Of a stretch of DNA of 64,000 nucleotides, positions 3,736 to 59,900 are shown piece after piece. Each line of letters opens with the position of its first letter. Position 1 is the first letter of the stretch. Origin of the DNA: Balanoglossus misakiensis (Eukaryota > Animalia > Hemichordata); the NCBI GenBank assembly GCA_040954595.2, contig CM082586.2:8091337-8155336 (forward strand), written 5' to 3'. A program made the translations under genes and the position numbers. Under the pieces are notes generated by a model. The model saw only the letters and a list, made by a program, of their open reading frames with translations. It made no database searches and was not told the origin of the DNA.

Positions 3736-5857
3736 AGTACAAACATGCAAACACCATAACGTTTAGGCGTTGTTACCTCGCAAGTGAATACGAAAAATAT
3801 GACGCAGTTTGGGGAAAGTATGGCTTACAGGTTAATCTGTGGCGACCCCGACAACTACAGAAGCCGTGGGCCTAGTCCGTGATGTCGGACCGCGATTTCG
3901 ATAATAGCCCACGGTCCCCCGCTAAGTGTTGCTTAGTGATTCCAAAATTAACTCAAAAGCGTGTTAGTTGGTCATGTACGCCCATGTACGACAACAGTGT
4001 GAAGTGTGCCCTCTCGTTGGGACTATAGACACTGCGAACAGATTAACAAAGAATGTGCAAACTTGCCTGAAAATTAGTCAAGTGAAAACGACGTGTTTCG
4101 GTTTGCATTTGCAAGTTTTTCCCTGGGCAGTGCTTATGCTTTGATTTGTGAATTTCACAACATTACAAGTGGCATAGCGTTAATTGTCCATACTGCAGTA
4201 TAAAACAATGTCAGTAGCCCACACACCATTTTACACATCAGTTATATTTCAGCTATCTGCATTTTGCACTTCCCTGCATGAGTGTTGACATATCAAGCAA
4301 CTGATCTGCAAGTGTGTATTTTCTGTTAAGTGACGCCTCTACACTAAGACACTATTTTTAGTTAATATATTATGCTCCAATATGAGTTGAATGTTTCGGT
4401 TACACGCGATCTGAAGCGTGGCATTGGTTTTCAAGCATGGACGTACCACAGGTTTGAGCCAACCGAATACGATGATAGCATTATTTGAAATTCGGCCATT
4501 CTGCAATCATGTACACTACACAGACAATATTGTAAACGTATTTATCAAGGAGATACCGTATCCAAGTTCCCTAAAATATTTTCAAGATCTGTTTAATTAA
4601 AAATCGGGTGCATTTTTACTTTTATCTTAAGAGGGACGTTTGATGTATCGTGATAAACACTTCAAATGAATGAATTCATTTTCTGAGTGTTTTTGACTGA
4701 CCACTGAGTAGTTTGGCACGTGACTCCGTTTCACCCATTAGTGTGTGCCATGCAGGTCACCCACAAATGACGTACTCATTTTAACAGTCGATTTGCTAAC
4801 TTGGAAAAATATTTCCTTGGAAAACAAAAGACAGTTTAAAATCAATGTCAACAAGAAGTAATTGTGAGGGACCGGGACTGAGACCGGGGCTCTAAAACGA
4901 GTTCAGCTACAAGCGTTGCGATCATTGGGCTGGGTTGGAACAAAAGACGCCAACAATTATACGCGTGACAGAGGGCTTAATCCGAGAGCCTTGTCTTTGT
5001 GGGCTAATAGAATCATTGACAATTACATGTACATGACAATGCGAACAATTAGAGACTACATCGCTTTCTCGGTAACTCGGGCAAATTACATACACGCATT
5101 ATCACACAAGAACCAGAATGTGTACATATCGGTGCATAACGCAATCTTCTACACAACATGAGTGTATGTCTGTGTCAATATTAGTCTATCAGAATAACCC
5201 GTATGAGATGATTGGCACAGTGAGGTATAAAAAATAACAGCAACATTTACGCATCAGGACGAGCCTATGCTTGCACTGAATGGTTACCATCCAAAATCTG
5301 ATAACCCGCACGCAATCAATTATTACGAAACGCTAAGGTTTATTTCTAGAACTTGTTCACCTCTTTCAAGTTTCTGTTGTGATTTTTCTACCGGCAACTG
5401 ATGCATTTCTAAAGAATAGATTTTTTTCTAAACTGAAGCTTCGGGTTTATGTACGAACTTTTAAAGCATGGAATCGATAGATATTTATCACAGGCGTAGA
5501 AACTGAGTCATTGTTGAAGTAAAGAGCTCATTTGAAATTCCACCGTGTATCTATTGTACCTATGCCTTGGGTGGCGACTACCTACGCATCCTCCTATTGT
5601 GCAATGATTGACAGGTCATCCTCCAAACAGATGCCAGGAATGCTAATATGCCTTTTGTTTCTTTTGACCAATCATCTGCAAGAGATGCAAAGTGTTGGTA
5701 TTGTTACGTCACTCACAGGGATTCCTCGCAAGTTGTATTCGTTCGGTAATAACACATGTGTACGCAGACTTAATAAGGAGGCACGATTTTTTTTCTCTGC
5801 AAGGACCAAAGACATTCATTGGTGCTGAAAGACACCTTGAAAAAAAGTCGATAGGCG

Positions 5858-26299
<20,442 letters not shown>

Positions 26300-28819: not shown

Positions 28820-31122
28820 TCAACACACCAGTCCCGCACTGTCCATGTCACCTGTATTTTCCTGACAAGTTTTACCTTCGCTCTCATTTCCTAACTCTAC
28901 AGGACAACTTTGTACTTTCTGACTCTGTTCAATTCCTCCTTCCGGCCTCACCCCTTGGCCGCCAGCGTCCTCTGCCCGATTGCCACATTTTGGATTTGTC
29001 ACTTTTTGTTCCAAGATTTCGATGCATCTTTGTACATTCCTCACGGCGTTCCTCCTAGCACTTCTAATATCCTCGTTACCATTGGACTCTATGTTGTCCA
29101 ATTTCAACAGATTTCTAGTCAGGAACTCTTCTAGATGTAAATACTCCTTGTCACTTTTTCTGCCTTGAAAGGCTTCAACTTGCTGAAGTAAATACTTGGT
29201 GTCCTCGGTGATTTTGTTGATTTCTATTAATTCTGGAGAAGAATTTGCATATTTTACTCTCTCTTGTGAGTTCATAGAGGGCGCTCTTCCCGTTGCTTGT
29301 GGAGCAGTTGGTTGCTCAGGTTCTCGGTGATTGGATTGTGGTATTTGTGACGCTGAGGATTGTGGGTAGCTTGGCGCCGCTGATTGGCTCGTGTGTAAAG
29401 GCGACGAGCTGGCAGCTGGGGGGCCCTTTTCGACCTGGATTGGAATTATCCGTTCGTTGGTCGATCGTGCCGCGTTCCCGGGATGTGGATGGTGATGGGA
29501 TGTGGATGGAGCCCTCTCTGCCTCATTCACTTGTTGCTGTTGTCTCATTTGGTCATGATGTCGCCGTACACCTTCCCTGTGTGCAGTGGGGTCTGCATGC
29601 GGGTGATGGGCGCTTGCAGCATCTCCCGGATTACGGCCATCGACTTCTATTGGGATAATTCTCTCTTTGGCACTTCCAGGGTTTGTCCATGCTGAACGAC
29701 TCGATGTTGGATTTCCATGACCGGAATATCCCGGCTGATGTCGTCCACTGAAGAAGGGATCTTCAGCAAATGGGGAATGGCTTCCAAACATGGACTCTCG
29801 GCCAGAAAAATGCTGATCCATTGGCTGCAAGAAAAGAACGAGTGAGCTCGTTAAGTATTTTGGCTAGAACAATACAAATGAAAATATGGACTCGTCAGAA
29901 ATGTCTTTGTGACACAGTGTCACCTGACAGGTGGGACCGCACAAAACCAAACTCTTCAATGTGGCAAAAAATTGTTCTTAAATTTATTGTAACAGCAATA
30001 CGGTTTAAAAAATCAGAATTGACGGATCTATGTATGTGTGTGATCAGATACAAATATAATCTACCAATATTCTGAATGAGCGTGACACCAATGAAAACTT
30101 GAGTTTCCTCACGTAGCTGTATCCCTCTGAGTTAGTGGCTTCGAGGGTAACAACCACTAAGTGTGATTGTGGGGAAATTAGTCATCTTTGATATTACAAC
30201 CGTTTGGAATATTTGTATATATTGTATGTCACTAATCCAATACTAAGTGTGTGGTGTGTGTGTGTGTGGGGGGGGGGGGGGGGTATTTGTTTCCTGTAAT
30301 TAGCCATGCATGTGTGTCCATCCATTCATTGTGACTGGACTTCAAATAAGCATACAGCATAAATAGTTTAGTCATCGGTTTAAATGGGATTATCTAATTG
30401 ATGGTTTAATTGATTGGTTCGCGGAGGATTCTAGACACAGGCGCAGGAATCACACTGACTGTAGCCTGATTCAACATGTGAAGAAGAAATTTGTTCTTTA
30501 CACGTTGAATCAGGCTACAGTCAGTGTGATTCCTGCGCCCTTGATTCTAGGCCTCCACGGTTGGTTTCTAGTTGTACTGAATATGCCACTCCTTTTCTGT
30601 TTGATATTTGCTTGTCAACATGTATCAGTGTCAAACACACGAGAAAAATCGCCCATCAAACATGACGTGGCAGATTTAACCACAGTACCTCCACGATATA
30701 ATGTCGACAGTGAAAGATCTCTCTCTGCATTGCAGATACATTTACATGTAAATGTCTGAATGGATAAACACTGACAGTGACAGCAACGAAGTCGAGTAAC
30801 ACCGTATTGATGTGTTTGGACGATCGGACATAACATTTAACCACACCAGAGTGACGACAACAGAGAGATTTTCAGCGGTGACATAATTCGTAACACAATT
30901 TAAAGAGATTTAACAAAATAGTCCACATACCGGTCGACGCCTGGGGTCTTGCCAAGTTGTCCTTTTCGTATTGTGATCCACGTAAAATGGCCAGCCGGTT
31001 TGTGTATCGAATAACATTTCCCAACCTGGTGGCAGCGGGTTACTTGAATCGGCACCTACACGAAATCTTCCGTCGTTGTACGAGCTGCGATTGAATGATC
31101 CAGACTGGTCTTGGCTGGCCAT
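28820..31122 (-). CDS. BAG3: BAG3/starvin-like co-chaperone (WW domain, two IPV motifs, BAG domain), ~398 aa; complement(join(28820..29824,30931..31122))
   Basis: Exon 1 encodes the WW domain [33 protein letters not shown] and ends CCG|GTATGT. Exon 2 starts after TTCTTGCAG in phase 0 and contains IIPIEV, IIPIQV and a BAG domain ([57 protein letters not shown]). Confidence 0.92.
30435..30542. mobile_element. ~108-bp foldback MITE in the BAG3 intron, hAT-like
   Basis: 36-bp perfect inverted arms GGCGCAGGAATCACACTGACTGTAGCCTGATTCAAC (30440..30475 / 30504..30539), flanked by direct repeat GATTCTAG (30427..30434, 30543..30550). Confidence 0.7.
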
Positions 31123-35446: not shown

Positions 35447-45845
<10,399 letters not shown>

Positions 45846-49510: not shown

Positions 49511-50100
49511 TTATGGTTCTTGGTGTGCAAATATTCCCACTTCTAAAATAGAGCTTGCGTTCTTGCAGGATTGCTCATGACCACGTTTCAGCTGTAGCAG
49601 TTGATCATTGACATAAAGGATGCTGCTGTACGTGTTAACCTGAAAGTTTTCAGGACGGAGATCACGCTGCCCTTCTCTACCACGGCGACAAAAATATAAC
49701 ATGATATTGAACCATACATTGTGGAGAAGTATAGTTGCGTCCGTATTCGAGCGACTGAAGTAGGTGGCTAGTTTAGCGAGATCGCCCGGGAGTATGGCCG
49801 GTTTGTGTACAACATTTCCTTTGCCCTTGCTTTTCAATTGCTTGCAAACGGCACTTAACATCTTCCGGACATTGGAAAACTCATCGAGTTCTCCTTTCTG
49901 AGTACGCACTTCAGCGTTGAATGTAGCCACGGCTGCATCCAGAGTCGTTGCTGTGAAGGTCTCGATCTCCCGGTAACTGTAGCTGTACTTGGAACTGAGA
50001 TAATTTTGAAAAACAGATACTGCATTGTTGGTCGCTACTCTCGTGATTTTGCTGTCCATTGGCAGTAAAAGACTATGTACGAGTATGAAAATTACTTTGC
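49511..50100 (-). pseudogene. Degenerate Crypton-type tyrosine recombinase (DUF3504/KCTD1-ZMYM-QRICH1-related) fragment
   Basis: Motifs FNAEVRTQKGE, LKSKGKGNVVHKPAILPGDLAKL and VWFNIMLYFCRRGREGQRDLRPENF (RG-R-E, first catalytic Arg). The segment normally lying between KGE and EF appears deleted, and similarity is lost after ENFQVN. Confidence 0.7.
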
Positions 50101-50534
50101 TAAAACACGAATAAATTTGATTTAATCTGTACTTGTTATGTATGACATTATTCTCACCCAAAAATGTTTATTCAAGCCGAAAATTACAAAATATTATCTT
50201 TTTATCATCGAAGTATGTTTTTCGATGATAAAATATGTATTTAACAATTTCCGATGTGAAAAAACAGTGATTTGGTGCAAAAAATATCATACATAAATAT
50301 CATACATGTCGAGAGAGTTTGATCAAATATATTCATATTTTTACAGAGTTTAATATTTTCATACTCGTACTGCAGATGCCAAACCGCGATGGTCGCCCGA
50401 AAATGCTTAAGTACTTTCAGTCTCTCGAACCCGCACCTTGACCCGCTGACCCGATACTGTAACCGGCCAAGATGGCGAGCATTCACCAGTGTAGTTCGGT
50501 CCATTAAGCTGATTTTATATGTTTAGATATAACC

Positions 50535-53500
50535 ATGGCAACCACTAGCAAAGATATCCTCCCCCTCAGGGCTTTATTCCTCAGGTTAGATAACGAACTG
50601 GGTGAGAAAGATGTAAAAAAACTGAAATTTTTACTGTCTGGAAGCCACATTAATGCAAGAGACGCAAAGAAGGCAGACAGTGCATTGGAATTATTCATGC
50701 AACTAGAAGAGCGTGGTCATGTGTCTAATACGGATGTGGAACTACTTGTAAACCTGATGAGACGTTTAAAACTCGCACGGTTACAGGAAGAAGTGGAGGA
50801 GTTCCAGAGACAATCAAAATCGGTTGCAGCAGGTAAGGCGTTATCAGACATTACCACTACATGCTGCCATTGTTGCAGACTGTAACTCAGGGAACGGACC
50901 ACGTCGCACGACAACATGTCGTTTGAGAGCCAATCCAATTTAAACGAAAAATGTTTAATATGGAGCATATTCAAATACAATGGAAGTATTTGGGTTACCC
51001 ATAGCTTTTATAATTTGAATCAATCCGATCGGAAAAAATAGTGCAGACATTTGAGGTCATGATTTGGTTAAACTGAGCGTACGTGTGTCAACATGAAAGA
51101 ATAGGCCTACATGAGAAGTAGGTCAGTAGGAGGAGTCGGCCATTTTTTGAACTTCTGTATATGTGCAATGATACTGAGCAAATACTTGCAATTTGGGGCA
51201 ATTTTCTTCCAAATATCGACACGATCGGTACATAATAAATACATAAAAGATGCTGAGTATATCGCAGTCGCGCTATTATCAAATATCTACAACAAACCAA
51301 AGTATCACAGGTCAAACCTTGCATATACAGAGAATTGAGATTATCATACGCCATGAATTAAATATGCAAATTAGTCACATGTCCATTAAATTATTTTTCA
51401 GTATTTCACAGCAAATGAGTAATTATAAACAAGAAGGACTACATTCTGTTTGTAAACATCGAACACCAAGAACGCTAGAGCAAAGTTATGATCGCCAAAA
51501 AATTGTGATTTTTCAACACTGTGGCAGGTCATCAACCATTATCCTTCCGAACTCTTGTCAGATTAACAAAACATTTGTCAGTATATATGGGATTCTTGAA
51601 AATTTCGAAAATCTCTGGCTATCGCCAGTTCTCAAATATTGCAGATGCGATCTCCGACATAGGTGACTATTGGCGAAATGGCCCAACATGTACCCTTTGC
51701 ATAACAGAGATTGCATCATTTTGTCGTATGGACTGCCATCTTAGTGTTGCATAGTCTCTGTCGCATCACTGTACTGATAATCAAAATGCCACGATCGGAA
51801 CTTTGATTTTCGTCAAATCTGGGGTAACACATTCACTATATATAATAACAGAACTTCATGGCCTCTGCGCGTGATCTGTGCTGTGCAGAAGTTATTTTGG
51901 CGAGTGCTGAGGTATATTCTGCAGCAGCACTTTCATGAGCGCAACAAGTGAAGGACAGCAGAATACTCCGCAACACTTGTATAATAATTTCTGTACGGCT
52001 CAGAGCGTGCGGAGAGGTCATTAAGTTCTGTGTAGGGAACAGACTGCACGTAGATGTTTTGAAATGCTGTTATATTATCAAATTGAGTGCACTTTTTACA
52101 TTTAATTTCACAGCAGGGAAAAGAAGGCGGCGATGCAGTGTCACTGACCTACGAGGACCGGAAATGCAGCCCTGTGTTGGTGAGTACGATGATAGATATA
52201 AAGTCTAGGAAAATAGTGATTATACTAAAGGGGCCCTTTCTTTACTAACTACTGGAAGCTAGTAATGCTTGACCTACGTATTCACATTGGAATGACAACA
52301 ACCTTTACACAGTAGATAATACTTCTCTAGGACTAGGAAAGTAGGAGTGTCCGTAAATGAAGGCATTTGGGTACCTGGCAGCTCAGATATTGCAATGTGT
52401 CTGTTTAGCTCCGTAGGCTTATTGCTGAGCATGTGAGCTCTTGTTTGCTCCCCAGAGAGTTGTGTGGAATAAAATTACCGGTAGGTCAAATGACCAGGGG
52501 TTATTGTAAAGCGCCATGAGCACAAAAGGTTGTGGATATGTGCGCTATATAAGAACTCACTATTAATGCAGTAGAAATGATGTTTTAACATGAGACTTTC
52601 GAGTTGTTGGGAAACACAAGATTTGAACTCATGTCACAAATGCGGGCCGCACTACATTCAGTCACATATAGTCAACTGGAACAACACTTGTGAAGACGCT
52701 CGCAAAATAAACATGAAGGACAAATCAAGAAAGATTCCTCCTTCAAAAGCAAAAACGGTTGGATACCCAGCTCAGATCTTGTCGTGCCCACTGTTATCCA
52801 TGTCCGTCTCAATTCGTTTGTTGGGGGCATGGGTAGAAGGTCATGCCGAGTACCCTTGTGTGTTTTTCTCATTTGTTGGCCTATTTTGAAGCTGCAACAG
52901 AACAAATCAAAGTATACAGGATTGGGTTACGGATATGAAGTCTACATCATGTATATATCGCCTGCTGGTTATCGCCTTCCGTAGAAAACCTTATGTACTG
53001 GAAACGCCATGGCAGCCATTTTGTCTGTGTAAAAGCATTTAGTCACACGTATGAAAATATATCACATACATTTGTGCTTTCTCTCCCACAGATTTCATGG
53101 TAATGCTGACGTTGGTCTTGACATTCATGAAGTCAACGGTAGAGTATAAGCTTATGATGGAAGAAAGGAATGAAGAAAAAATCAAAGAATTACTAAGCAC
53201 AGCCACAGAGATTTTTGAGAGTGAGTTCAGCGAAACAATTGGTGGAAATAATCCAGACATGAAGAGATTGATAAGAGATGCATTTAAACGTTTCGAACTG
53301 GAATTGATCAAGATGAAACGGTCCTCTGTTATACTTACTCTACGGTCATTCAAAATTCGTAGCATAGAACGTTTCCAAGATAGAGTGGAAAGTGGTGATG
53401 TTGACAGACAACTGACTGACATATTTGTCACAAAGGCGATGAAAGCACTGATCAAAGACCAACCTTTAGAGTTCCGTGTGGAAACTCACGTTGACCAATC

Positions 53501-56500
53501 ACAATTGAAGATGGCAATACAGTACTTTAAAGGTAAGTGTTCGCTGACAATACATTTACCTTAGTTTCTTTTTGTAAAACATTAGGAGAGAACCATTTGA
53601 TTTCTGGAGTGTAGGATACGGATAGGTCAGCAAATTATTCTTTTCACCCAGTGTTACAACATTATTTTCTTCAAGGCATTTAAGAAGAATTTGTTTTCCT
53701 CTCCACCATCTGCCAACATTTTTTTCTTCAAAAATTCCTCCACCCACCCCGAAGTAAAATGGTTCTCCCCTTTATTTCTAGCATGTGGTGATTTTTTCAT
53801 TGGCAATTCATGTTTGTTTATTATGGCCAGGCCAAATTAATTCCATGTTCTTTGATATGGATCAGCTATAGTATCTGAAAAGAGAATCTTGATCATACCA
53901 CGAATATAATGCATGACATTATTTTCAGTCCGTTACATTGTACATGCATTAATAGTTTTCTGGACTCTGATGTGAGCGTTATTGTACAAATTCACAGATT
54001 TGACGGTAGTGTATAGTGATGAACAATATTTTGATACGTTTTGTGCAGTTTTCTAACATTTTGTTCCGTACATGCTCACAGATTTGCATCAAGACAACAA
54101 GGTTTTTGCCGGAGCCAGGAGCAGAAAATTACAGCAACCGAGCCTAGATGAATTCCCCTGCGTAAATCAACTGAATTTGATTTCAACAAAATGGCCGGCC
54201 AGACAGGAAGTTTCAAAGTTTGGTCTTCTTATGTTAAAGTGTAGTAAGAGTTTCCGTAAACGACTACAAGTTGTCACAGTACAACACGACATCGACCAGA
54301 GAAAGATCACATATCTGGAGCAGACGAAATCACTCCATCAAGAAGAAATCAAACGGCTCCAGAGTGCCAAAGAACGAGCAGAAAAATTAGCTGTGCGTGA
54401 GAGGACAAAACGAATTGCTCCCTCAGTGGTATGTAACGATTTAAAAATACTCATGTAATAATATTAGGTATTTCTACGCTGAAAAATTGTTTGATAAACT
54501 CTGAGCGAAATAGTGTTTGTAAAATTGCAAACGCTGCGACTTCAGCTTTAGAGTACAGCTGCCACACATGAGAGAAACTTCCTGTGCAAAATGTCATTCG
54601 AGGAATTTTGCTTCTTCCTCTCGTGTGCGTCGGTCTTGAGTAATTTTCCTCACAAGGAAAAAATATCAAACACTTGAATATTTTGATCCACAGCACAAAA
54701 GTAATAAAAATCACAAATTAAAGCTGCAAGCAGCGTTGGCGGGGCACAAGCGGTTCCCGTGGTGACCAGCAAATGCCACGGCTGTATCTGCTGGGGATAC
54801 CAATATATGGGAAAGTAGGTCAAAGGACACCTGAGGTCACCCCAAATTTGGCCAAAAAAAATTGGACCCCATACTAGTCTAGATCCAACAAAAAACCAGA
54901 CCCCTAGCCCTATTGGTTCGCCTGCAATTAGATATGCATATAATTAATGAGGTCTTGTGTAAGACTCCATTATGTGCTCAATCCCCATAAAAGCCAGGGC
55001 TCTAACTGCTCTGGATGCTGAGATATGGGAAAGTAGATCAAAGGTCACCCAAGGTCACCCAAAATTAGGGCATAAAATTTTGATCCCAGAGTGGGCCATG
55101 TCCAACCAATACCAGACCTCTAGCCCTATTGGGTAGCATGGAATTAGATATGCAGAAAAATGATGTTTCAGAAATAGGTCAAAGGTCATTGTCAAAATTA
55201 CCAAAATATTTGTGTCATGTTCTGGCAGCATTGGTACCCATGTCCACAAAATTCATGACTGTGGTGCTTTGACAAGAGGAGGTATGGGGAATATGCATAT
55301 ATAATTATTTGTTTTAAAACTGGGTCAAAGGTCATGTGAAAATTGCCCCGAAAAATTGTGACAACTTCCGGTCATATGATGACTCATATCCAAAAAAAGA
55401 ATTTCCATGCTGTCAACATTTTGGCTACAAAACGGAATTATCACTTTTCAATGGTTTTCCGAAAATCCAACATGGCCGCCATAATGATCGACCAATCACA
55501 TTGCGCTTCGCAAACTTGATAGACATAGGTTAGGTGACCACATATCCCACATCCCGAGACTCGGTAACCGCTGGTTCTGGAGAAGAAGATTTTTAAAGTT
55601 ATAAGTAGTTTTTCAGAAAAACAATTGTAGCAAAAAACCTTTATGTATGACGTCATGATTTTATGGGGTAAAATGATGGACATAAGGTAGGCTACCTGCA
55701 CACCAAATTTGAACTCGATCGGCCCAGTGGTTTTTGAGAAGGACTCATTTAATGATTTTCAGGAAATCCAATATGGCCGCCAGGTCACGTGACTAATTAA
55801 ATATTCACGAGCCACTGCACGTCTACTCATTGGCCCCTACCACCCTACCAAGTTTCAGCCCCCTAGGTGCTGCGGTTTTCCAGATCTACCTGGCCGATTA
55901 TTTGCAGAAGAAGAATAATAATAAAGAATTAAAGCTGCAAGCAGCATTGTCGGGCCCAAGCGCTGATCTTGAATTACATATGCACAGTATGAATGAGAAG
56001 AAACAGAATGCTCTATCATGTTTTTTATCTCATGACATAACAAGGACGTATGTATTTTTGCTGCAGAAATAGAGTAAAGTAGGTAAAAGGGCACCTGAGG
56101 TCATCTGAATTTTGGGAAATTTTTTTGACCCATATTTGTCCATGTCCAACAAAAACCAAAACTCTAGCTCTATTGGTTCGTCTGTAATTAGGTATGTGCA
56201 TATTTAATGAGGTCAGCAGGTGTCACAGGTGACCCAAAAATGTGGCTTTACATTTTGGTCCCATTCTGCCAAATGCCAAGGCTGTATCTGCTCTGGATGC
56301 TAAGATATGCGAAAGTAGGTCAAAGGTCACCAGAGGTCATGCAACATTTGGGCAAAAAAATTTGACCCCATTCTGGTCCATTTCCAACAAAAACCAAACC
56401 ACTAGCTTTATTGGTTCGCCTGTAATTAGCGATGCACATAATTAATGAGGTCAACAGAGGTCAAAGGGGTCATGAAAAGTAGCAAAATATTTTGATCACA

Positions 56501-59500
56501 CACTAATCCACATGCATCAAAAACCAAACGTCTAGCCCTATAGGTTAGCCAGGAAATAGATATGCAGAAATAATAACGTGTGAAAAGTAGGTCAAAGGTC
56601 ATGTGAAAAATCGCCAAAAATTTGTAACATATTTTAGTCATATGACGATTGATATCCATGAAAAAAATTTGTATGCTATCAATTTTTAGACTAGGAAAAG
56701 GAATTTCAAGTTTTCACTGCTTTTTACAAAATCCAATATGGCCGCCATAATCTTCGACCAATCACAATGCTCTTTGCAAACTGGATAGACATCAGTGTAG
56801 TGACTATACTCCCCGAATCTTGCGACTCAGTTATTGCCCGTTCTGGAGAAGAAGATTTTTGCAGTTTTACTATGGTTTTTCGAAAATCCAATATGGCCGC
56901 CATAATCTTCGACCAATCACAATGCTTCTTCTCAAACTTGATAGACATCAGTTAGGTGACCACATACCCCAAATCCCGCGACTCGGTTATCGCCGGTTCT
57001 TGAGAAGAAGATTTTTGAAGTTTTAGTTGGATTTTTCGAAAATCCAATATGGCGGCCAAAGTCACGTGACCGCTCGAGATTTTATTATCAAACTTTGTTG
57101 GGCAGAGGCCATGTGTACTATGTACCAAATTTGAACTTGATTTGCCTTGTAGTTTTTGAGAAGAAGTCATTTACATTTTTTGAGAAAATCCAATATGGCC
57201 GCCAGGGCACGTGACTAATTAAATATTCACGAGCCACTGCACATCTACTCATTGACCTTGACCACTGTAGTAAGTTTGAGCAGTGTACCTGCAGTAGTTT
57301 CAGAGATTTAGTTGGCCGAAGAATTGACAGGAGAATAAAGAAAGAAAAATTCCAACGAAACCAATAGGGCCCAAGCGCTTGCGCGCGCTTGGGCCCTAAA
57401 AATTCCAACAATACCAATGGGGGCACAAGCCGCCTGAGGGCGCTTGTGCCCCCAAAAAATCGCCCGAACACGAGTGGAAATTTGTTTAGCAAAATTCCTC
57501 GAATGACTTTTTGCACAATAAAATTCTCTCTTGTGCGGCAGCCTTTATACGCCGTATGCACTTGTCACCCTGCAATTCTCCACATTCTTCCTCAATGAAC
57601 ATCGCTATAGCGTCTGTGAATCACTAAGTAATATCATTCATTTTTGAAAAACCTTAGCCCTGTTTAAATATGAATTTAGATGTTTTAGTAGCTTTGATGA
57701 TTTCTTAATTAATACCTTTATCAAACTACATGAACAATAATATCACAATCGTAGTTGAGCTCTAGAGAGGCTAAGAAAATTCGCCAATTTAAAAACGTGA
57801 ATGTTTTTCTGTTTGCATTACTTTCGATAGAAAAGGCCGCAAATACATTATAAATTGAGAACAACACACAAACCGCTGATGGTGTTTTGTTCTAGACAAA
57901 ATATGTGAAAAAATTGTTTGCACTATTTAAATTTCCAGGACGAAGTCTCCAAAATAAAGGACAAAAAAGAAGACGTAGAAGAAGGTCAGTGTGAAGGTTG
58001 CAAAGAAACTGAATCGCTACACAGATGCAAAGAATGCAGTGCGAAGTTTTGTTCTTCCTGTATAGTTGTCCATGAAGACACAGAAGCGGTCAAAGGTCAG
58101 AGTGACGTCACACTCGACAAATACTTAGAAGAAATATCAAGTCAGAATTCCCAGCAAAGTCAAGTATACTGCAGCTTTCACACACAGAATGAAGTACATC
58201 TGTTTTGTGATAGATGTCAAGTATGCATCTGTCCTGAATGTATTGCCAAACATCCAATTCCTGACCATGTCCACAGAGAGATACACGAAGCAGCTGATGA
58301 TTACAGACAACAACTGAGCGAGATGGTGACGAAGTTGAGAAGAAATGAACAGGCCGTCAAGTCACGTGACACTGGGGGCGAGACCATCAAAGATGACCTG
58401 GAAGTGCATCGTCAAGAAGAAGAGAAGAAAGTGAGAAATAAAGCAAAAAAGAGAATAAAAATGTTGAAGAGGGAAGAGTTCAGACTGGTTGAAGAGATGA
58501 ATCTTGGATACAAGATGATCAGACAAACCATTGAAAGTGAAGTCGATGATTGGGAAGAAATACATGGAAATATTTCCAAGGCATGCGATTATCTTGACGC
58601 ACTGGTGCATGATGGGAGTTCTGCTCAACTCATGTCATCCAAGAAACCGACGCTGCTTCGCATTCAAGAATTCGCTCATAAAGTGAATCAATTCATAAAA
58701 TGTGAGTTGATCAAATTAAACCCTTCTGCAGACCCTCCAGAGTATGGAATGCTGGGATTACTGACATTAGATATCAGTGCATCACAGTGTAGAGTAGAGG
58801 GCATTCCCAAAAGACTCGTCAGGGGCGAGTCTGCTGACGTCATTGTCAGAATCAAAGACAGAAGAGGGAAACCAGTCATACCATACAAAGCAATCACAGC
58901 AAAGATCTGCAAAGAAGATGGGTTACAAAAAGACGTTGGAGTGGTTGACAACAGAGACGGTACACGCAGTTTGAGAATTCATGCTGATGTGGGTGGTAGA
59001 CATGAAATCAACATAACACTTGGTGATCAGCCGATACCAGGATCACCATTTGTAATTTCTGTCAAGGGTATGGTGAAGATAATAGGCAAAGGTCAGCTTG
59101 ACAGTCCAGCAGGGATAACTACTAATAAACACGGCGACTTTGTTACAGCTGACCGGGGTAACAATAGGGTACACATAGCCGACAGAGATGGGAAGTACAA
59201 AAAAGGTTTAACGTTCACACAGTTTGAAAAGCCATTTAGCCCGCGCAATGTGGCAATATCAGCTGATGATGAATACTTCATGACAGATAAGGGCAACAAC
59301 CAAGTAGTTGTAAGCGATGAGGATGGAGAAGTACTCAGGCCCTTTGGACAACCTGAAGTGAAATATCCCTATGGAATTGGTATCAGTCCTCTGGATGGCA
59401 GTGTTTATGTCACAGACTGGGATGGAGAGGGTGATGACACAGACAAGGAAGGTAGTCACTGTGTTAGGAAATACACACAGCAAGGTCAGCACATCAAATC

Positions 59501-59900
59501 TTTTGGAAAGCGTGGCACTGAAGAGGGAGAATTTGATGGACCTGTATATGTGGATATCAACAGTCAAGGAGAAGCATTTGTATCAGATCTTAGCAATAGC
59601 CGAGTTCAGGTGTTCAGTGCAGACTGTGAGTTTTTATACTCATTTCACAACATCAGCACAGAAGACAGCCTGAAATGGCCCGAGGGAATAGTGACAGATA
59701 AAGATGGAAATGTGTATGTCTGTGAGAGAGGAAACAAACGCGTGGTGAAGTTAGACAGCAGAGGGAGATTCATATCTCGCATTGACAGTGATGAGGATGG
59801 ACTTGAGTTGCCAGTTGGTATCACACTGACCAATGATGTGCCATGCAGAGTGGCTGTAGTTGACTTTGAAAATGACTGCATTAAAGTGTTTGCCCAATAA
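50535..59900 (+). CDS. DED + TRADD-N-like + B-box/B-box/coiled-coil/filamin/NHL (RING-less TRIM2/3-like) protein, ~1037 aa; join(50535..50832,52114..52179,53092..53532,54082..54428,57939..59900)
   Basis: Exon 1 is a death effector domain (LRALFLRLDNELGEKDVKKLKFLL..ALELFMQLEERGHVSNTDVELLVNLMRRLKLARL). Exon 5 has CEGC..CKEC..CSSC..H, CSFH..CDRC..CPEC..H..H, a coiled coil, a filamin repeat (VVDNRDGT..IPGSPF) and NHL repeats (LDSPAGI, YPYGIGI, FDGPVYV, KWPEGIV, LPVGITL). Splice sites are GT-AG with phases 1,1,1,0 giving 3114 nt in frame. Joining exons 1-4 to exon 5 is inferred from phase compatibility and the lack of an ATG start for exon 5. Confidence 0.78.
52330..52566 (+). mobile_element. 3' part of an L2-tailed SINE
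   Basis: GGGTACCTGGC..GCTCCCCAG..TTGTAAAGCGCCATGAGCAC..GTGCGCTATATAAGAAC..TATTA is the typical L2/SINE2 tail pattern. Confidence 0.5.
54718..57453 (-). mobile_element. Helentron/HINE-like element, family A copy 2 (contains nested B4)
   Basis: Same termini as copy 1 (GCTGCAAGCAGC..GGGGCACAAGC; GGGGGCACAAGCCGCCTGAGGGCGCTTGTGCCCCC). Confidence 0.75.
55929..57399 (-). mobile_element. Helentron/HINE-like element, family B subfamily variant (B4)
   Basis: Starts TTAAAGCTGCAAGCAGCATTGTCGGGCCCAAGC and ends GGGCCCAAGCGCTTGCGCGCGCTTGGGCCC. ~156-bp internal units at 56728, 56884 and 57040. Confidence 0.75.

What the first reader, a model, noticed from the sequence alone, without database searches (positions are those of the whole stretch)
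50535..59900. RING-less TRIM-NHL carrying a death effector domain and a TRADD-N-like domain: candidate sensor-adaptor for death signalling
Seen: DED exon, short basic linker (KRRRR), ~145-aa exon 3, coiled-coil exon 4, then B-box/B-box/CC/filamin/NHL, all in frame, with no RING. Established: DEDs recruit caspase-8/FADD-type proteins; TRADD-N binds TRAFs; TRIM coiled coils oligomerise; NHL propellers bind RNA or protein ligands. Inference: exon 3 (IKMKRSSVILTLRSFKIRSIERFQDRVESGDVDRQLTDIFVT..VETHVDQSQLKMAIQYF) resembles TRADD-like N-terminal domains. The E3 RING would thus be replaced by signalling modules, giving a sensor (NHL) - oligomeriser - DED/TRADD-N effector layout analogous to NLR/RLR receptors.
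Basis: partly seen in the sequence, partly recalled or inferred. Interest (0 to 1): 0.82.

Follow-up and report, generated by a model that had tools for sequence, protein, structure and literature searches.

The report
Death-headed TRIM-NHL sensor of acorn worms
This gene, whose closest relatives are in acorn worms, is predicted to splice a cell-death signalling head (a death effector domain and a TRADD-N domain) onto a TRIM-NHL protein in place of the usual ubiquitin-ligase RING, and it likely works as an intracellular immune sensor, a design already catalogued in corals, oysters and amphioxus.

Summary
Five GT-AG exons (50535-59900, +) give a 1037-aa frame without stops: DED, basic linker, TRADD-N, helical/coiled-coil exon, then B-box1/B-box2/coiled coil/filamin/NHL. 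No RING lies anywhere in the window. A Ptychodera flava RefSeq model (XP_070539273.1) is collinear over all five exons; two more models cross the exon 4/5 junction. No RNA confirms the splicing. Exon 3 is a DEDD2-clade TRADD-N: two of its four database relatives are published members, and TRADD-N ranks first in two fold searches, weakly. The window and five P. flava models form a RING-less clade among RING-bearing acorn-worm TRIM-NHLs. Their propeller top face varies far more than the rest (19 of 36 sites versus 26 of 242). Best reading: a pyrin-like intracellular sensor that clusters on a ligand and signals through DED contacts. This is untested. TRAF binding is not implied by this kind of TRADD-N. 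The class is known: Kaur et al. 2021 list near-identical RING-less layouts in coral, oyster and amphioxus. New here are the acorn-worm graft, which keeps the whole B-box-to-NHL body, and the variable face.

The parts
50535..50832 (+). Exon 1: ATG and death effector domain (aa 12-93). Keeps the FL motif (F32-L33 = FADD F25-L26) and D26 (= FADD E19); the RxDL motif reads L-A-R-L
52114..52179 (+). Exon 2: 66-nt phase 1-1 linker with KRRRR (aa 102-106); least independently supported exon (6 of 21 identical to P0003)
53092..53532 (+). Exon 3: DEDD2-clade TRADD-N domain (aa 122-268), phase 1-1; Ser200 of the uS motif at 53325-53327
54082..54428 (+). Exon 4: extension shared with Saccoglossus TRADD-N proteins (aa ~269-322), then a short predicted coiled coil (aa ~336-380); 49% identical to P0003
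54558..57542 (.). Repeat-filled core of intron 4: 55-nt inverted arms (54558-54612 / 57488-57542, 87%) around two diverged ~1.2-1.4-kb repeat copies; about 3.0 of the intron's 3.5 kb
57939..59900 (+). Exon 5: one 1962-nt exon for the RING-less TRIM-NHL body, ending in TAA
57990..58100 (+). B-box1 (aa 402-438); last zinc ligand His replaced by Gln
58170..58277 (+). B-box2 (aa 462-497), full C-H-C-C-C-C-H-H pattern
58284..58721 (+). TRIM coiled coil (aa ~500-645), assigned by position and homology
58776..59054 (+). Filamin domain (aa 664-756)
59064..59897 (+). Six-repeat NHL beta-propeller (aa 760-1037) whose top-face positions vary strongly between paralogues

Best explanation
The five exons are predicted to form one RING-less TRIM-NHL protein with a DED + TRADD-N head, which likely acts as a pyrin-like intracellular immune sensor: its variable propeller face would bind a repeated foreign or damaged-self ligand, clustering of TRIM dimers would bring the DEDs together, and these would likely recruit FADD/caspase-8-type DED proteins. 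Shown: the domains, the open frame, no RING in the window, a RING-less clade among RING-bearing relatives, and amino-acid variation concentrated on the propeller's top face. Inferred: splicing into one mRNA; antiparallel dimers with the N-termini far apart (from pyrin); ligand-driven clustering; DED-DED recruitment; and TRADD-N as a conformational bridge between head and tail (Kaur et al.'s model) rather than a TRAF binder. The gene likely arose when an older DED-TRADD-N-coiled-coil head was grafted onto a TRIM-NHL body just before B-box1.
For: (1) One gene: P0003 (XP_070539273.1, 1046 aa) aligns over aa 10-1037 across all four junctions; P0105 crosses junctions 3/4 and 4/5; P0001 crosses 4/5; the 4/5 region aligns with no internal gap to both models displayed, P0003 and P0001. 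(2) DED above Pfam cut-off; all 21 PDB sequences hit by a two-sequence DED profile are FADD, caspase-8 or cFLIP, and the FL motif is kept. (3) TRADD-N: 2 of the 4 relatives of exon 3 among 1.84 billion proteins are Saccoglossus LOC102805649 and LOC102809883, both listed as TRADDN-DEDD2 by Kaur et al.; a third carries the GT4-conflict partner domain. Atlas top hits for the P0003 region are TRADD-like_N clusters, 0.92-0.93. The model has pLDDT 90, and human TRADD-N ranks first in Foldseek and VIA-align (Z 5.4, the only Z of 5 or more among 48,161 chains). The uS Ser is invariant in 5 of 5 and sits in the hairpin turn. (4) The window and P. flava RING-less models form a clade with SH-aLRT 100 inside a 21-row, otherwise RING-bearing group. 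(5) Among the three closest paralogues 19 of 36 top-face sites vary, against 26 of 242 other NHL sites (Fisher p 3e-8), 6 of 35 opposite-face loop sites (p 0.003), 2 of 101 B-box and 4 of 97 filamin sites. (6) Precedent: pyrin's RING is replaced by a death-fold PYD (PMC4455283); DED+TRADD-N heads with variable immune tails (PMC8195603).
Against: No transcript evidence for this locus; the supporting RefSeq models are predictions whose RNA support I could not see, and only 1 of the 5 (P0003) is full length. Exon 4's donor is the weakest (6 of 9), read-through stops after 9 codons, and AATAAA hexamers lie in intron 4. Exon 3 itself misses Pfam TRADD-like_N (best alignment member E 0.028), and the fold matches are weak (Foldseek E 0.24, TM 0.40, rmsd 15; Z 5.4 is in the range the tool calls common). 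The DED lacks RxDL and is single, so an inhibitory role fits too. Top-face sites were picked by repeat anatomy after I had seen the alignment, face assignment was not checked on a model, no dN/dS was possible, and the coiled coil also varies (39 of 163). Top faces also differ among non-immune human TRIM-NHLs (PMC9634614). The trees are quick trees without bootstrap. No ligand, partner or death phenotype is known.
Confidence: 0.55

Rival explanations
1. Same protein, but a brake or decoy: the single DED caps or sequesters DED filaments (like cFLIP or PEA-15), or the RING-less body pairs with RING-bearing paralogues and damps their ligase activity.
For: Single DED without RxDL: L-A-R-L here, also altered in P0020 and P0003. 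cFLIP is among the PDB relatives. DEDD2, the namesake of this TRADD-N clade, is described as a negative regulator that binds cFLIP. Many RING-bearing paralogues exist.
Against: The FL motif is intact. A pure brake does not explain a top face only 46-66% identical between paralogues whose B-boxes are 98-99% identical.
Confidence: 0.14
2. One reading: TRADD-N binds a TRAF MATH domain, so the protein borrows an E3 ligase in trans and signals to NF-kB/JNK while the DED recruits caspase-8.
For: The Ser equivalent to TRADD Ser67, which contacts TRAF2, is kept; TRADD-N/TRAF2 (1f3v) is the top Foldseek hit; it would make sense of losing the RING.
Against: DEDD2-clade domain with 13-16% identity to TRADD-N. 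Kaur et al. find the Ser conserved even in bacteria, which lack MATH domains, and no matching MATH expansion in these animals.
Confidence: 0.12
3. A Brat-like RING-less, RNA-binding translational regulator whose DED/TRADD-N head is a scaffold or a nuclear-targeting module as in DEDD/DEDD2.
For: NHL domains of Brat and LIN-41 bind RNA on the top face. DED - basic linker - TRADD-N is the DEDD2 order (the basic linker of DEDD is recalled). Basic clusters occur in the window and in 4 of 5 paralogues.
Against: The window's 36 top-face sites hold 7 basic and 8 acidic residues, unlike the electropositive Brat face; the best PDB match is TRIM3, whose face is mixed. KRRRR is not kept in P0003. Some paralogues are more basic (P0001: 10 basic, 2 acidic), so RNA as one ligand class is not excluded.
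Confidence: 0.1
4. Two units, or a mainly short transcript: a DED-TRADD-N-coiled-coil gene (like Saccoglossus LOC102805649) that ends in intron 4, beside a headless TRIM-NHL exon.
For: Stand-alone DED+TRADD-N+coiled-coil genes exist in Saccoglossus. Weak exon 4 donor, early stop on read-through, poly(A) hexamers in the intron. 4 of 5 P. flava models carry only part of the head.
Against: Exon 5 has no Met before its B-boxes yet keeps an intact 653-codon frame; three P. flava models on two scaffold lengths cross the same junction; most of intron 4 is inserted repeat; no RING exon lies in the window.
Confidence: 0.09

Closest known systems
[quoted passage not shown]
   Same: N-terminal DED followed by a DEDD2-clade TRADD-N at the head/tail junction; uS Ser; hemichordate lineage; TRIM-type tail. 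Listed layouts include DED+DED+TRADD-N+coiled coil+filamin+propeller (Stylophora XP_022798487.1), Death+TRADD-N+coiled coil+propeller (5 Branchiostoma rows) and Ig+DED+TRADD-N(NCOA6)+B-box+propeller (Crassostrea XP_011421835.1).
   Different: No row found has DED+TRADD-N with both B-boxes, coiled coil, filamin and propeller and no RING. No Saccoglossus TRADD-N row seen has a TRIM tail, and Ptychodera has 0 hits (the file was cut when stored). The body here groups with acorn-worm TRIM-NHLs, so the graft looks independent.
Ptychodera flava RefSeq models XP_070539273.1 (P0003), XP_070556695.1 (P0105), XP_070556532.1 (P0001), XP_070556526.1 (P0002), XP_070554797.1 (P0020)
   Same: Same RING-less clade; P0003 has the whole layout (37% identical over aa 8-379, 57% over exon 5).
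   Different: Named only 'TRIM2/3/71-like'; the window protein is at most 70% identical over exon 5, so it is a distinct paralogue or from a related species (not determined).
Pyrin / TRIM20 (PMC4455283, passages)
   Same: TRIM protein whose RING is replaced by a death-fold domain joined to the B-box by a long linker, with a C-terminal binding domain.
   Different: PYD versus DED; B30.2 versus filamin-NHL; no TRADD-N; an analogy of layout, with no shared origin shown.
TRIM-NHL family (TRIM2, TRIM3, TRIM71/LIN-41, Thin, Brat)
   Same: B-box1/B-box2/coiled coil/filamin/six NHL repeats; best PDB matches are TRIM3, Thin, TRIM2 and TRIM71. Brat is also RING-less (recalled).
   Different: No RING; a 384-aa signalling head; a top face that is variable between paralogues and not clearly basic.
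DEDD / DEDD2
   Same: DED followed by a DEDD2-clade TRADD-N.
   Different: No TRIM-NHL tail in DEDD/DEDD2; they are conserved low-entropy genes; orthology not tested.

Membership tests
DED (PF01335) | Pfam score above the curated cut-off | tested here: met
   60.3 bits versus 35.9
DED (PF01335) | FL hydrophobic motif of helix 2 (role in DED assembly recalled) | tested here: met
   F32-L33 align with FADD F25-L26
DED (PF01335) | E/D-RxDL charge triad (common in DEDs, recalled) | tested here: not met
   D26 kept; FADD R72-H-D74-L75 aligns with L80-A-R82-L83
TRADD-N superfamily, DEDD2 clade | Sequence homology to curated members | tested here: met
   Exon 3 hits LOC102805649 and LOC102809883 at E 3e-4 and 4e-4 among 1.84e9 proteins; both are TRADDN-DEDD2 in the supplement
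TRADD-N superfamily, DEDD2 clade | uS motif in the beta2-beta3 turn | tested here: met
   S199-S200; Ser invariant in 5 of 5, between the two strands of the model; motif defined
TRADD-N superfamily, DEDD2 clade | RRM-like alpha+beta fold like 1F2H/1F3V | tested here: inconclusive
   Rank 1 in both searches but weak: Foldseek E 0.24; Z 5.4, rmsd 4.0, 97 aligned. The folded piece (aa 149-268) omitted aa 122-148, which may hold strand 1
TRADD-N superfamily, DEDD2 clade | Pfam TRADD-like_N (PF20694) at cut-off | tested here: not met
   No hit for exon 3; 1 of 5 alignment members at E 0.028; a curated member (P0107) is missed too, so the profile is not sensitive here
Kaur et al. DED-TRADD-N variable-tail immune proteins | Death-fold + TRADD-N constant head, TRADD-N internal, variable immune-type tail, slow-moving marine invertebrate | tested here: met
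   Architecture; related TRADD-N domains occur with GT4, coiled-coil and TRIM tails; nearest named relatives are hemichordate
TRIM-NHL (class VII) | B-box(es) + coiled coil + filamin + NHL propeller | tested here: met
   B-box1 lacks its last His
TRIM-NHL E3 ligase | N-terminal RING | tested here: not met
Vertebrate TRADD-type TRAF adaptor | Binding of TRADD-N to a TRAF MATH domain | not testable with these tools
   No acorn-worm TRAF sequence in hand; argues that MATH is not a universal partner
Pyrin-type sensor | Death fold in place of RING on a TRIM scaffold | tested here: met
   Layout only
Pyrin-type sensor | Signal-dependent nucleation of an adaptor/caspase polymer | not testable with these tools
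   Needs cell or biochemical assays
NLR / RLR receptors | STAND NTPase or SF2 helicase core | tested here: not met
   No such Pfam domain in exons 1, 3, 4 or 5 or in P0003
Diversifying immune receptor | Positive selection (dN/dS above 1) on the ligand face | tested here: inconclusive
   Amino-acid variation is strongly enriched on the top face; no paralogue DNA was available for dN/dS

The most novel reading that the evidence does not exclude
Ptychoderid acorn worms built their own pyrin: a family of RING-less TRIM-NHL receptors with a diversifying propeller face that turn ligand-driven TRIM clustering directly into DED-filament nucleation and caspase activation, gated by TRADD-N. With the separately built coral, oyster and amphioxus versions, this would be a recurrent, untested class of invertebrate intracellular receptors that trigger cell death without an NTPase.
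Probability: 0.35. Interest if true: 0.7.

Novelty: new variant of a known kind. Interest (0 to 1): 0.45.

Why it matters
Marine invertebrates carry large expansions of TRIM-NHL and death-fold genes of unknown function. This gene joins a variable binding face, an oligomerising scaffold and a death-signalling head in one chain, so it is a compact test case: force it to cluster and read out death or NF-kB. A positive result would give the DED-TRADD-N class of Kaur et al. a direct function and show that the pyrin design arose more than once. The layout itself is close to ones already catalogued in 2021, so it is not a surprise for specialists.

Tried and rejected
No whole genome is held, so no genome-wide paralogue survey was possible. 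Sequencing runs: no RNA holder was listed, so no reads were laid. Exon 3 alone against longer proteins: none of 231 candidates passed; the five-sequence profile found only its own four members among 7993 scored candidates. A single-sequence fold of whole exon 3 had pLDDT 44 and was not used. PDB sequence searches with exon 3 profiles did not find TRADD. Viral fold library: no match at E 0.001 or better. Complex prediction of DED with TRADD-N: no verdict. The PPR hits of exon 1 in PDB are repeat-summing artefacts (each stretch E above 1). Alignment A4 was misaligned and discarded. A RING exon or remnant in the window was sought and not found; weak tblastn hits fall on the B-boxes or have E of 0.015 or worse. 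The idea that the B-box1 His loss is clade-wide was rejected: 4 of 5 have Gln, P0105 keeps His. Literature searches for this architecture found no paper on it; PMC2575513 has no whole-word hit for NHL, B-box or TRIM. The library lacks most subscription papers. Earlier scan notes: no look-alike by sequence.
Full report
OBSERVATION. The sequence gives five + strand exons: 50535-50832, 52114-52179, 53092-53532, 54082-54428 and 57939-59900. All introns are GT-AG with phases 1, 1, 1, 0, and the joined frame is 1037 aa with no internal stop. Pfam confirms a DED in exon 1 (60.3 bits, cut-off 35.9) and NHL and filamin in exon 5; the B-box hit (21.8 bits) is under its cut-off, but both B-boxes show their ligand patterns. 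Exon 5's frame has no Met before aa 513, so its B-boxes need an upstream exon. A RING profile from 45 relatives finds nothing in the six frames of the window (best E 0.75) and scores controls at E 1e-28 or better.

IS IT ONE GENE? No RNA run was listed, so the evidence is comparative. A search with exon 5 gave 101 proteins; the top 65 are named acorn-worm proteins, and 2 of the 101 carry a precomputed DED. One of these, P. flava XP_070539273.1 (P0003), aligns with the model over aa 10-1037, across all four junctions. Identity by block is 29% (DED), 29% (exon 2), 19% (aa 122-147), 41% (rest of exon 3), 49% (exon 4) and 48-63% (exon 5). P0105 crosses junctions 3/4 and 4/5, P0001 crosses 4/5, and the 4/5 region aligns without an internal gap in both alignments displayed. 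About 3.0 of the 3.5 kb of intron 4 is inserted repeat. Against: these are predicted models, 4 of the 5 hold only part of the head, exon 4's donor is the weakest (6 of 9), and read-through would stop after 9 codons. I put the one-gene model at about 0.9.

EXON 3. Pfam does not recognise it. phmmer over 1.84 billion proteins gave 4 hits: P0003, a P. flava GT4-conflict protein, and two Saccoglossus proteins, LOC102805649 and LOC102809883. Kaur et al. 2021 (PMC8195603; I read the abstract, sections 8, 10, 11, 12 and passages, and searched Figure 4-source data 1) list those two as DED+TRADDN-DEDD2+coiled coil and TRADDN-DEDD2+coiled coil. The Atlas places the matching P0003 region next to TRADD-like_N clusters (0.92-0.93; family shares 18-62%). 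With a five-sequence alignment, aa 149-268 folded at pLDDT 90. Human TRADD-N ranked first in Foldseek (E 0.24, TM 0.40) and in VIA-align (Z 5.4, rmsd 4.0, 97 residues; next Z 4.1). Each match is weak alone; the piece folded may lack strand 1 (inference). The family's uS motif is S199-S200, with the Ser invariant in 5 of 5 and placed in the hairpin turn. Together these make exon 3 a DEDD2-clade TRADD-N. That does not imply TRAF binding: the paper says MATH domains are not a universal partner and proposes instead that TRADD-N bridges its flanking domains as a switch.

ORIGIN. In a quick tree of 54 exon-5 regions (rows covering at least 85% of exon 5, plus four outgroups; shorter hits left out), the window and four RING-less P. 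flava models form a clade (SH-aLRT 100) inside a 21-row group (100) whose other 16 rows all carry a RING. A filamin-NHL tree of 27 rows (chosen subset; P0058 dropped for coverage) adds P0020, the DED-filamin-NHL model, to the same clade. Both trees are midpoint-rooted and have no bootstrap. The head has a stand-alone relative in Saccoglossus with DED, TRADD-N and the first part of exon 4 but no TRIM parts. A RING-bearing relative starts matching exon 5 at B-box1. So an older DED-TRADD-N head was likely grafted on just before B-box1, replacing the RING (inference). No Glandiceps or Saccoglossus hit among the 101 carried a DED, which weakly suggests a narrow lineage.

THE PROPELLER. The loops that join strand b to c and d to a form the NHL top face, which binds RNA in Brat (PMC4015489, passages). 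I took 36 such positions, six per blade, from repeat anatomy, after seeing the alignment and after earlier scan notes had raised the idea. Among the three closest paralogues 19 of 36 vary, against 26 of 242 other NHL sites (p 3e-8), 6 of 35 opposite-face loop sites (p 0.003), 2 of 101 B-box sites, 4 of 97 filamin sites and 39 of 163 coiled-coil sites. Pairs with 98-99% identical B-boxes are 46-66% identical on the top face. This is the pattern of a variable binding surface, but no dN/dS was possible, and top faces also differ among human TRIM-NHLs (PMC9634614, passages). The window's face has 7 basic and 8 acidic residues, so it is not obviously an RNA binder.

THE DED. All 21 PDB sequences found by a two-sequence profile are FADD, caspase-8 or cFLIP. 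F32-L33 match FADD F25-L26; the RxDL motif is lost. The roles of these motifs are recalled, not tested.

MECHANISM. In pyrin/TRIM20 the RING is replaced by a death-fold PYD, and the antiparallel dimer holds the B-boxes about 170 A apart (PMC4455283, passages). By analogy, a resting dimer here would keep its two DEDs apart; binding of the propellers to a repeated ligand would cluster dimers, reconfigure TRADD-N and let DEDs seed an assembly with FADD or caspase-8-like proteins, leading to death or inflammatory signalling. All of these steps are inferred (0.55). Rivals: brake or decoy (0.14), TRAF-recruiting adaptor (0.12), Brat-like RNA regulator (0.10), two separate units (0.09).

WHAT IS KNOWN. 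Kaur et al. describe DED+TRADD-N heads with variable tails in marine invertebrates, including 22 DEDD2-clade copies in hemichordates and fusions to TRIM domains. Their supplement lists DED+DED+TRADD-N+coiled coil+filamin+propeller in Stylophora, Ig+DED+TRADD-N+B-box+propeller in Crassostrea gigas and Death+TRADD-N+coiled coil+propeller in five Branchiostoma rows. I found no row with this gene's exact layout and no Ptychodera entry, but the file was cut when stored and the other supplements were not searched. Five literature searches found no paper on this architecture.

VERDICT. A real and well-read gene; a new variant of a known kind. Interest 0.45.

Noticed in passing
window 49511-50167 (-): A 218-codon stop-free frame about 370 bp upstream of the ATG, on the other strand, with a motif that recalls the tyrosine recombinase of Crypton transposons (recalled). 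Pfam and PDB gave no meaningful hit, so this is unconfirmed.
   Followed up: partly
window 54558-57542: Intron 4 holds a nested repeat: 55-nt inverted arms around two tandem, 73-83% alike copies of a ~1.2-1.4-kb element with internal subrepeats; likely non-autonomous transposons.
   Followed up: partly
window 52114-53532: Exons 2 and 3 are both phase 1-1, so either could be skipped in frame, giving a DED head without TRADD-N; exon 2 also has a tandem CAG-CAG acceptor.
   Followed up: no
P0020 (XP_070554797.1): A P. flava model joins a DED 40% identical to exon 1 straight to filamin-NHL, without TRADD-N, B-boxes or coiled coil: a minimal variant or a mis-prediction.
   Followed up: partly
P0105 (XP_070556695.1) aa ~100-195: The exon-4 coiled-coil segment appears twice in tandem in this paralogue.
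   Followed up: no
window 58098-58100: B-box1's last zinc ligand is Gln in 4 of 5 clade members that have the pattern, but His in 29 of 30 other relatives matching the pattern (15 more did not match it).
   Followed up: yes
window 57939-57990: P0001, P0002, P0003 and P0105 carry a K-K/R-x-K/R basic cluster at the start of the exon-5 equivalent; the window lacks it there and has KRRRR in exon 2 instead. Possible nuclear signals at shifting positions.
   Followed up: partly
window 5855-6502, 17331-17834 (+): Exons of a T-box gene (Pfam T-box); the frame at 25445-26296 may be its last exon.
   Followed up: partly
window 28823-29863 (-): Exon with a BAG domain (PF02179, 66 bits).
   Followed up: partly
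window 39814-41457 (-): Exons resembling a subtilisin-type S8 peptidase (weak Pfam hit, E 0.07), with a long 4-nt microsatellite near 41.0-41.4 kb.
   Followed up: partly
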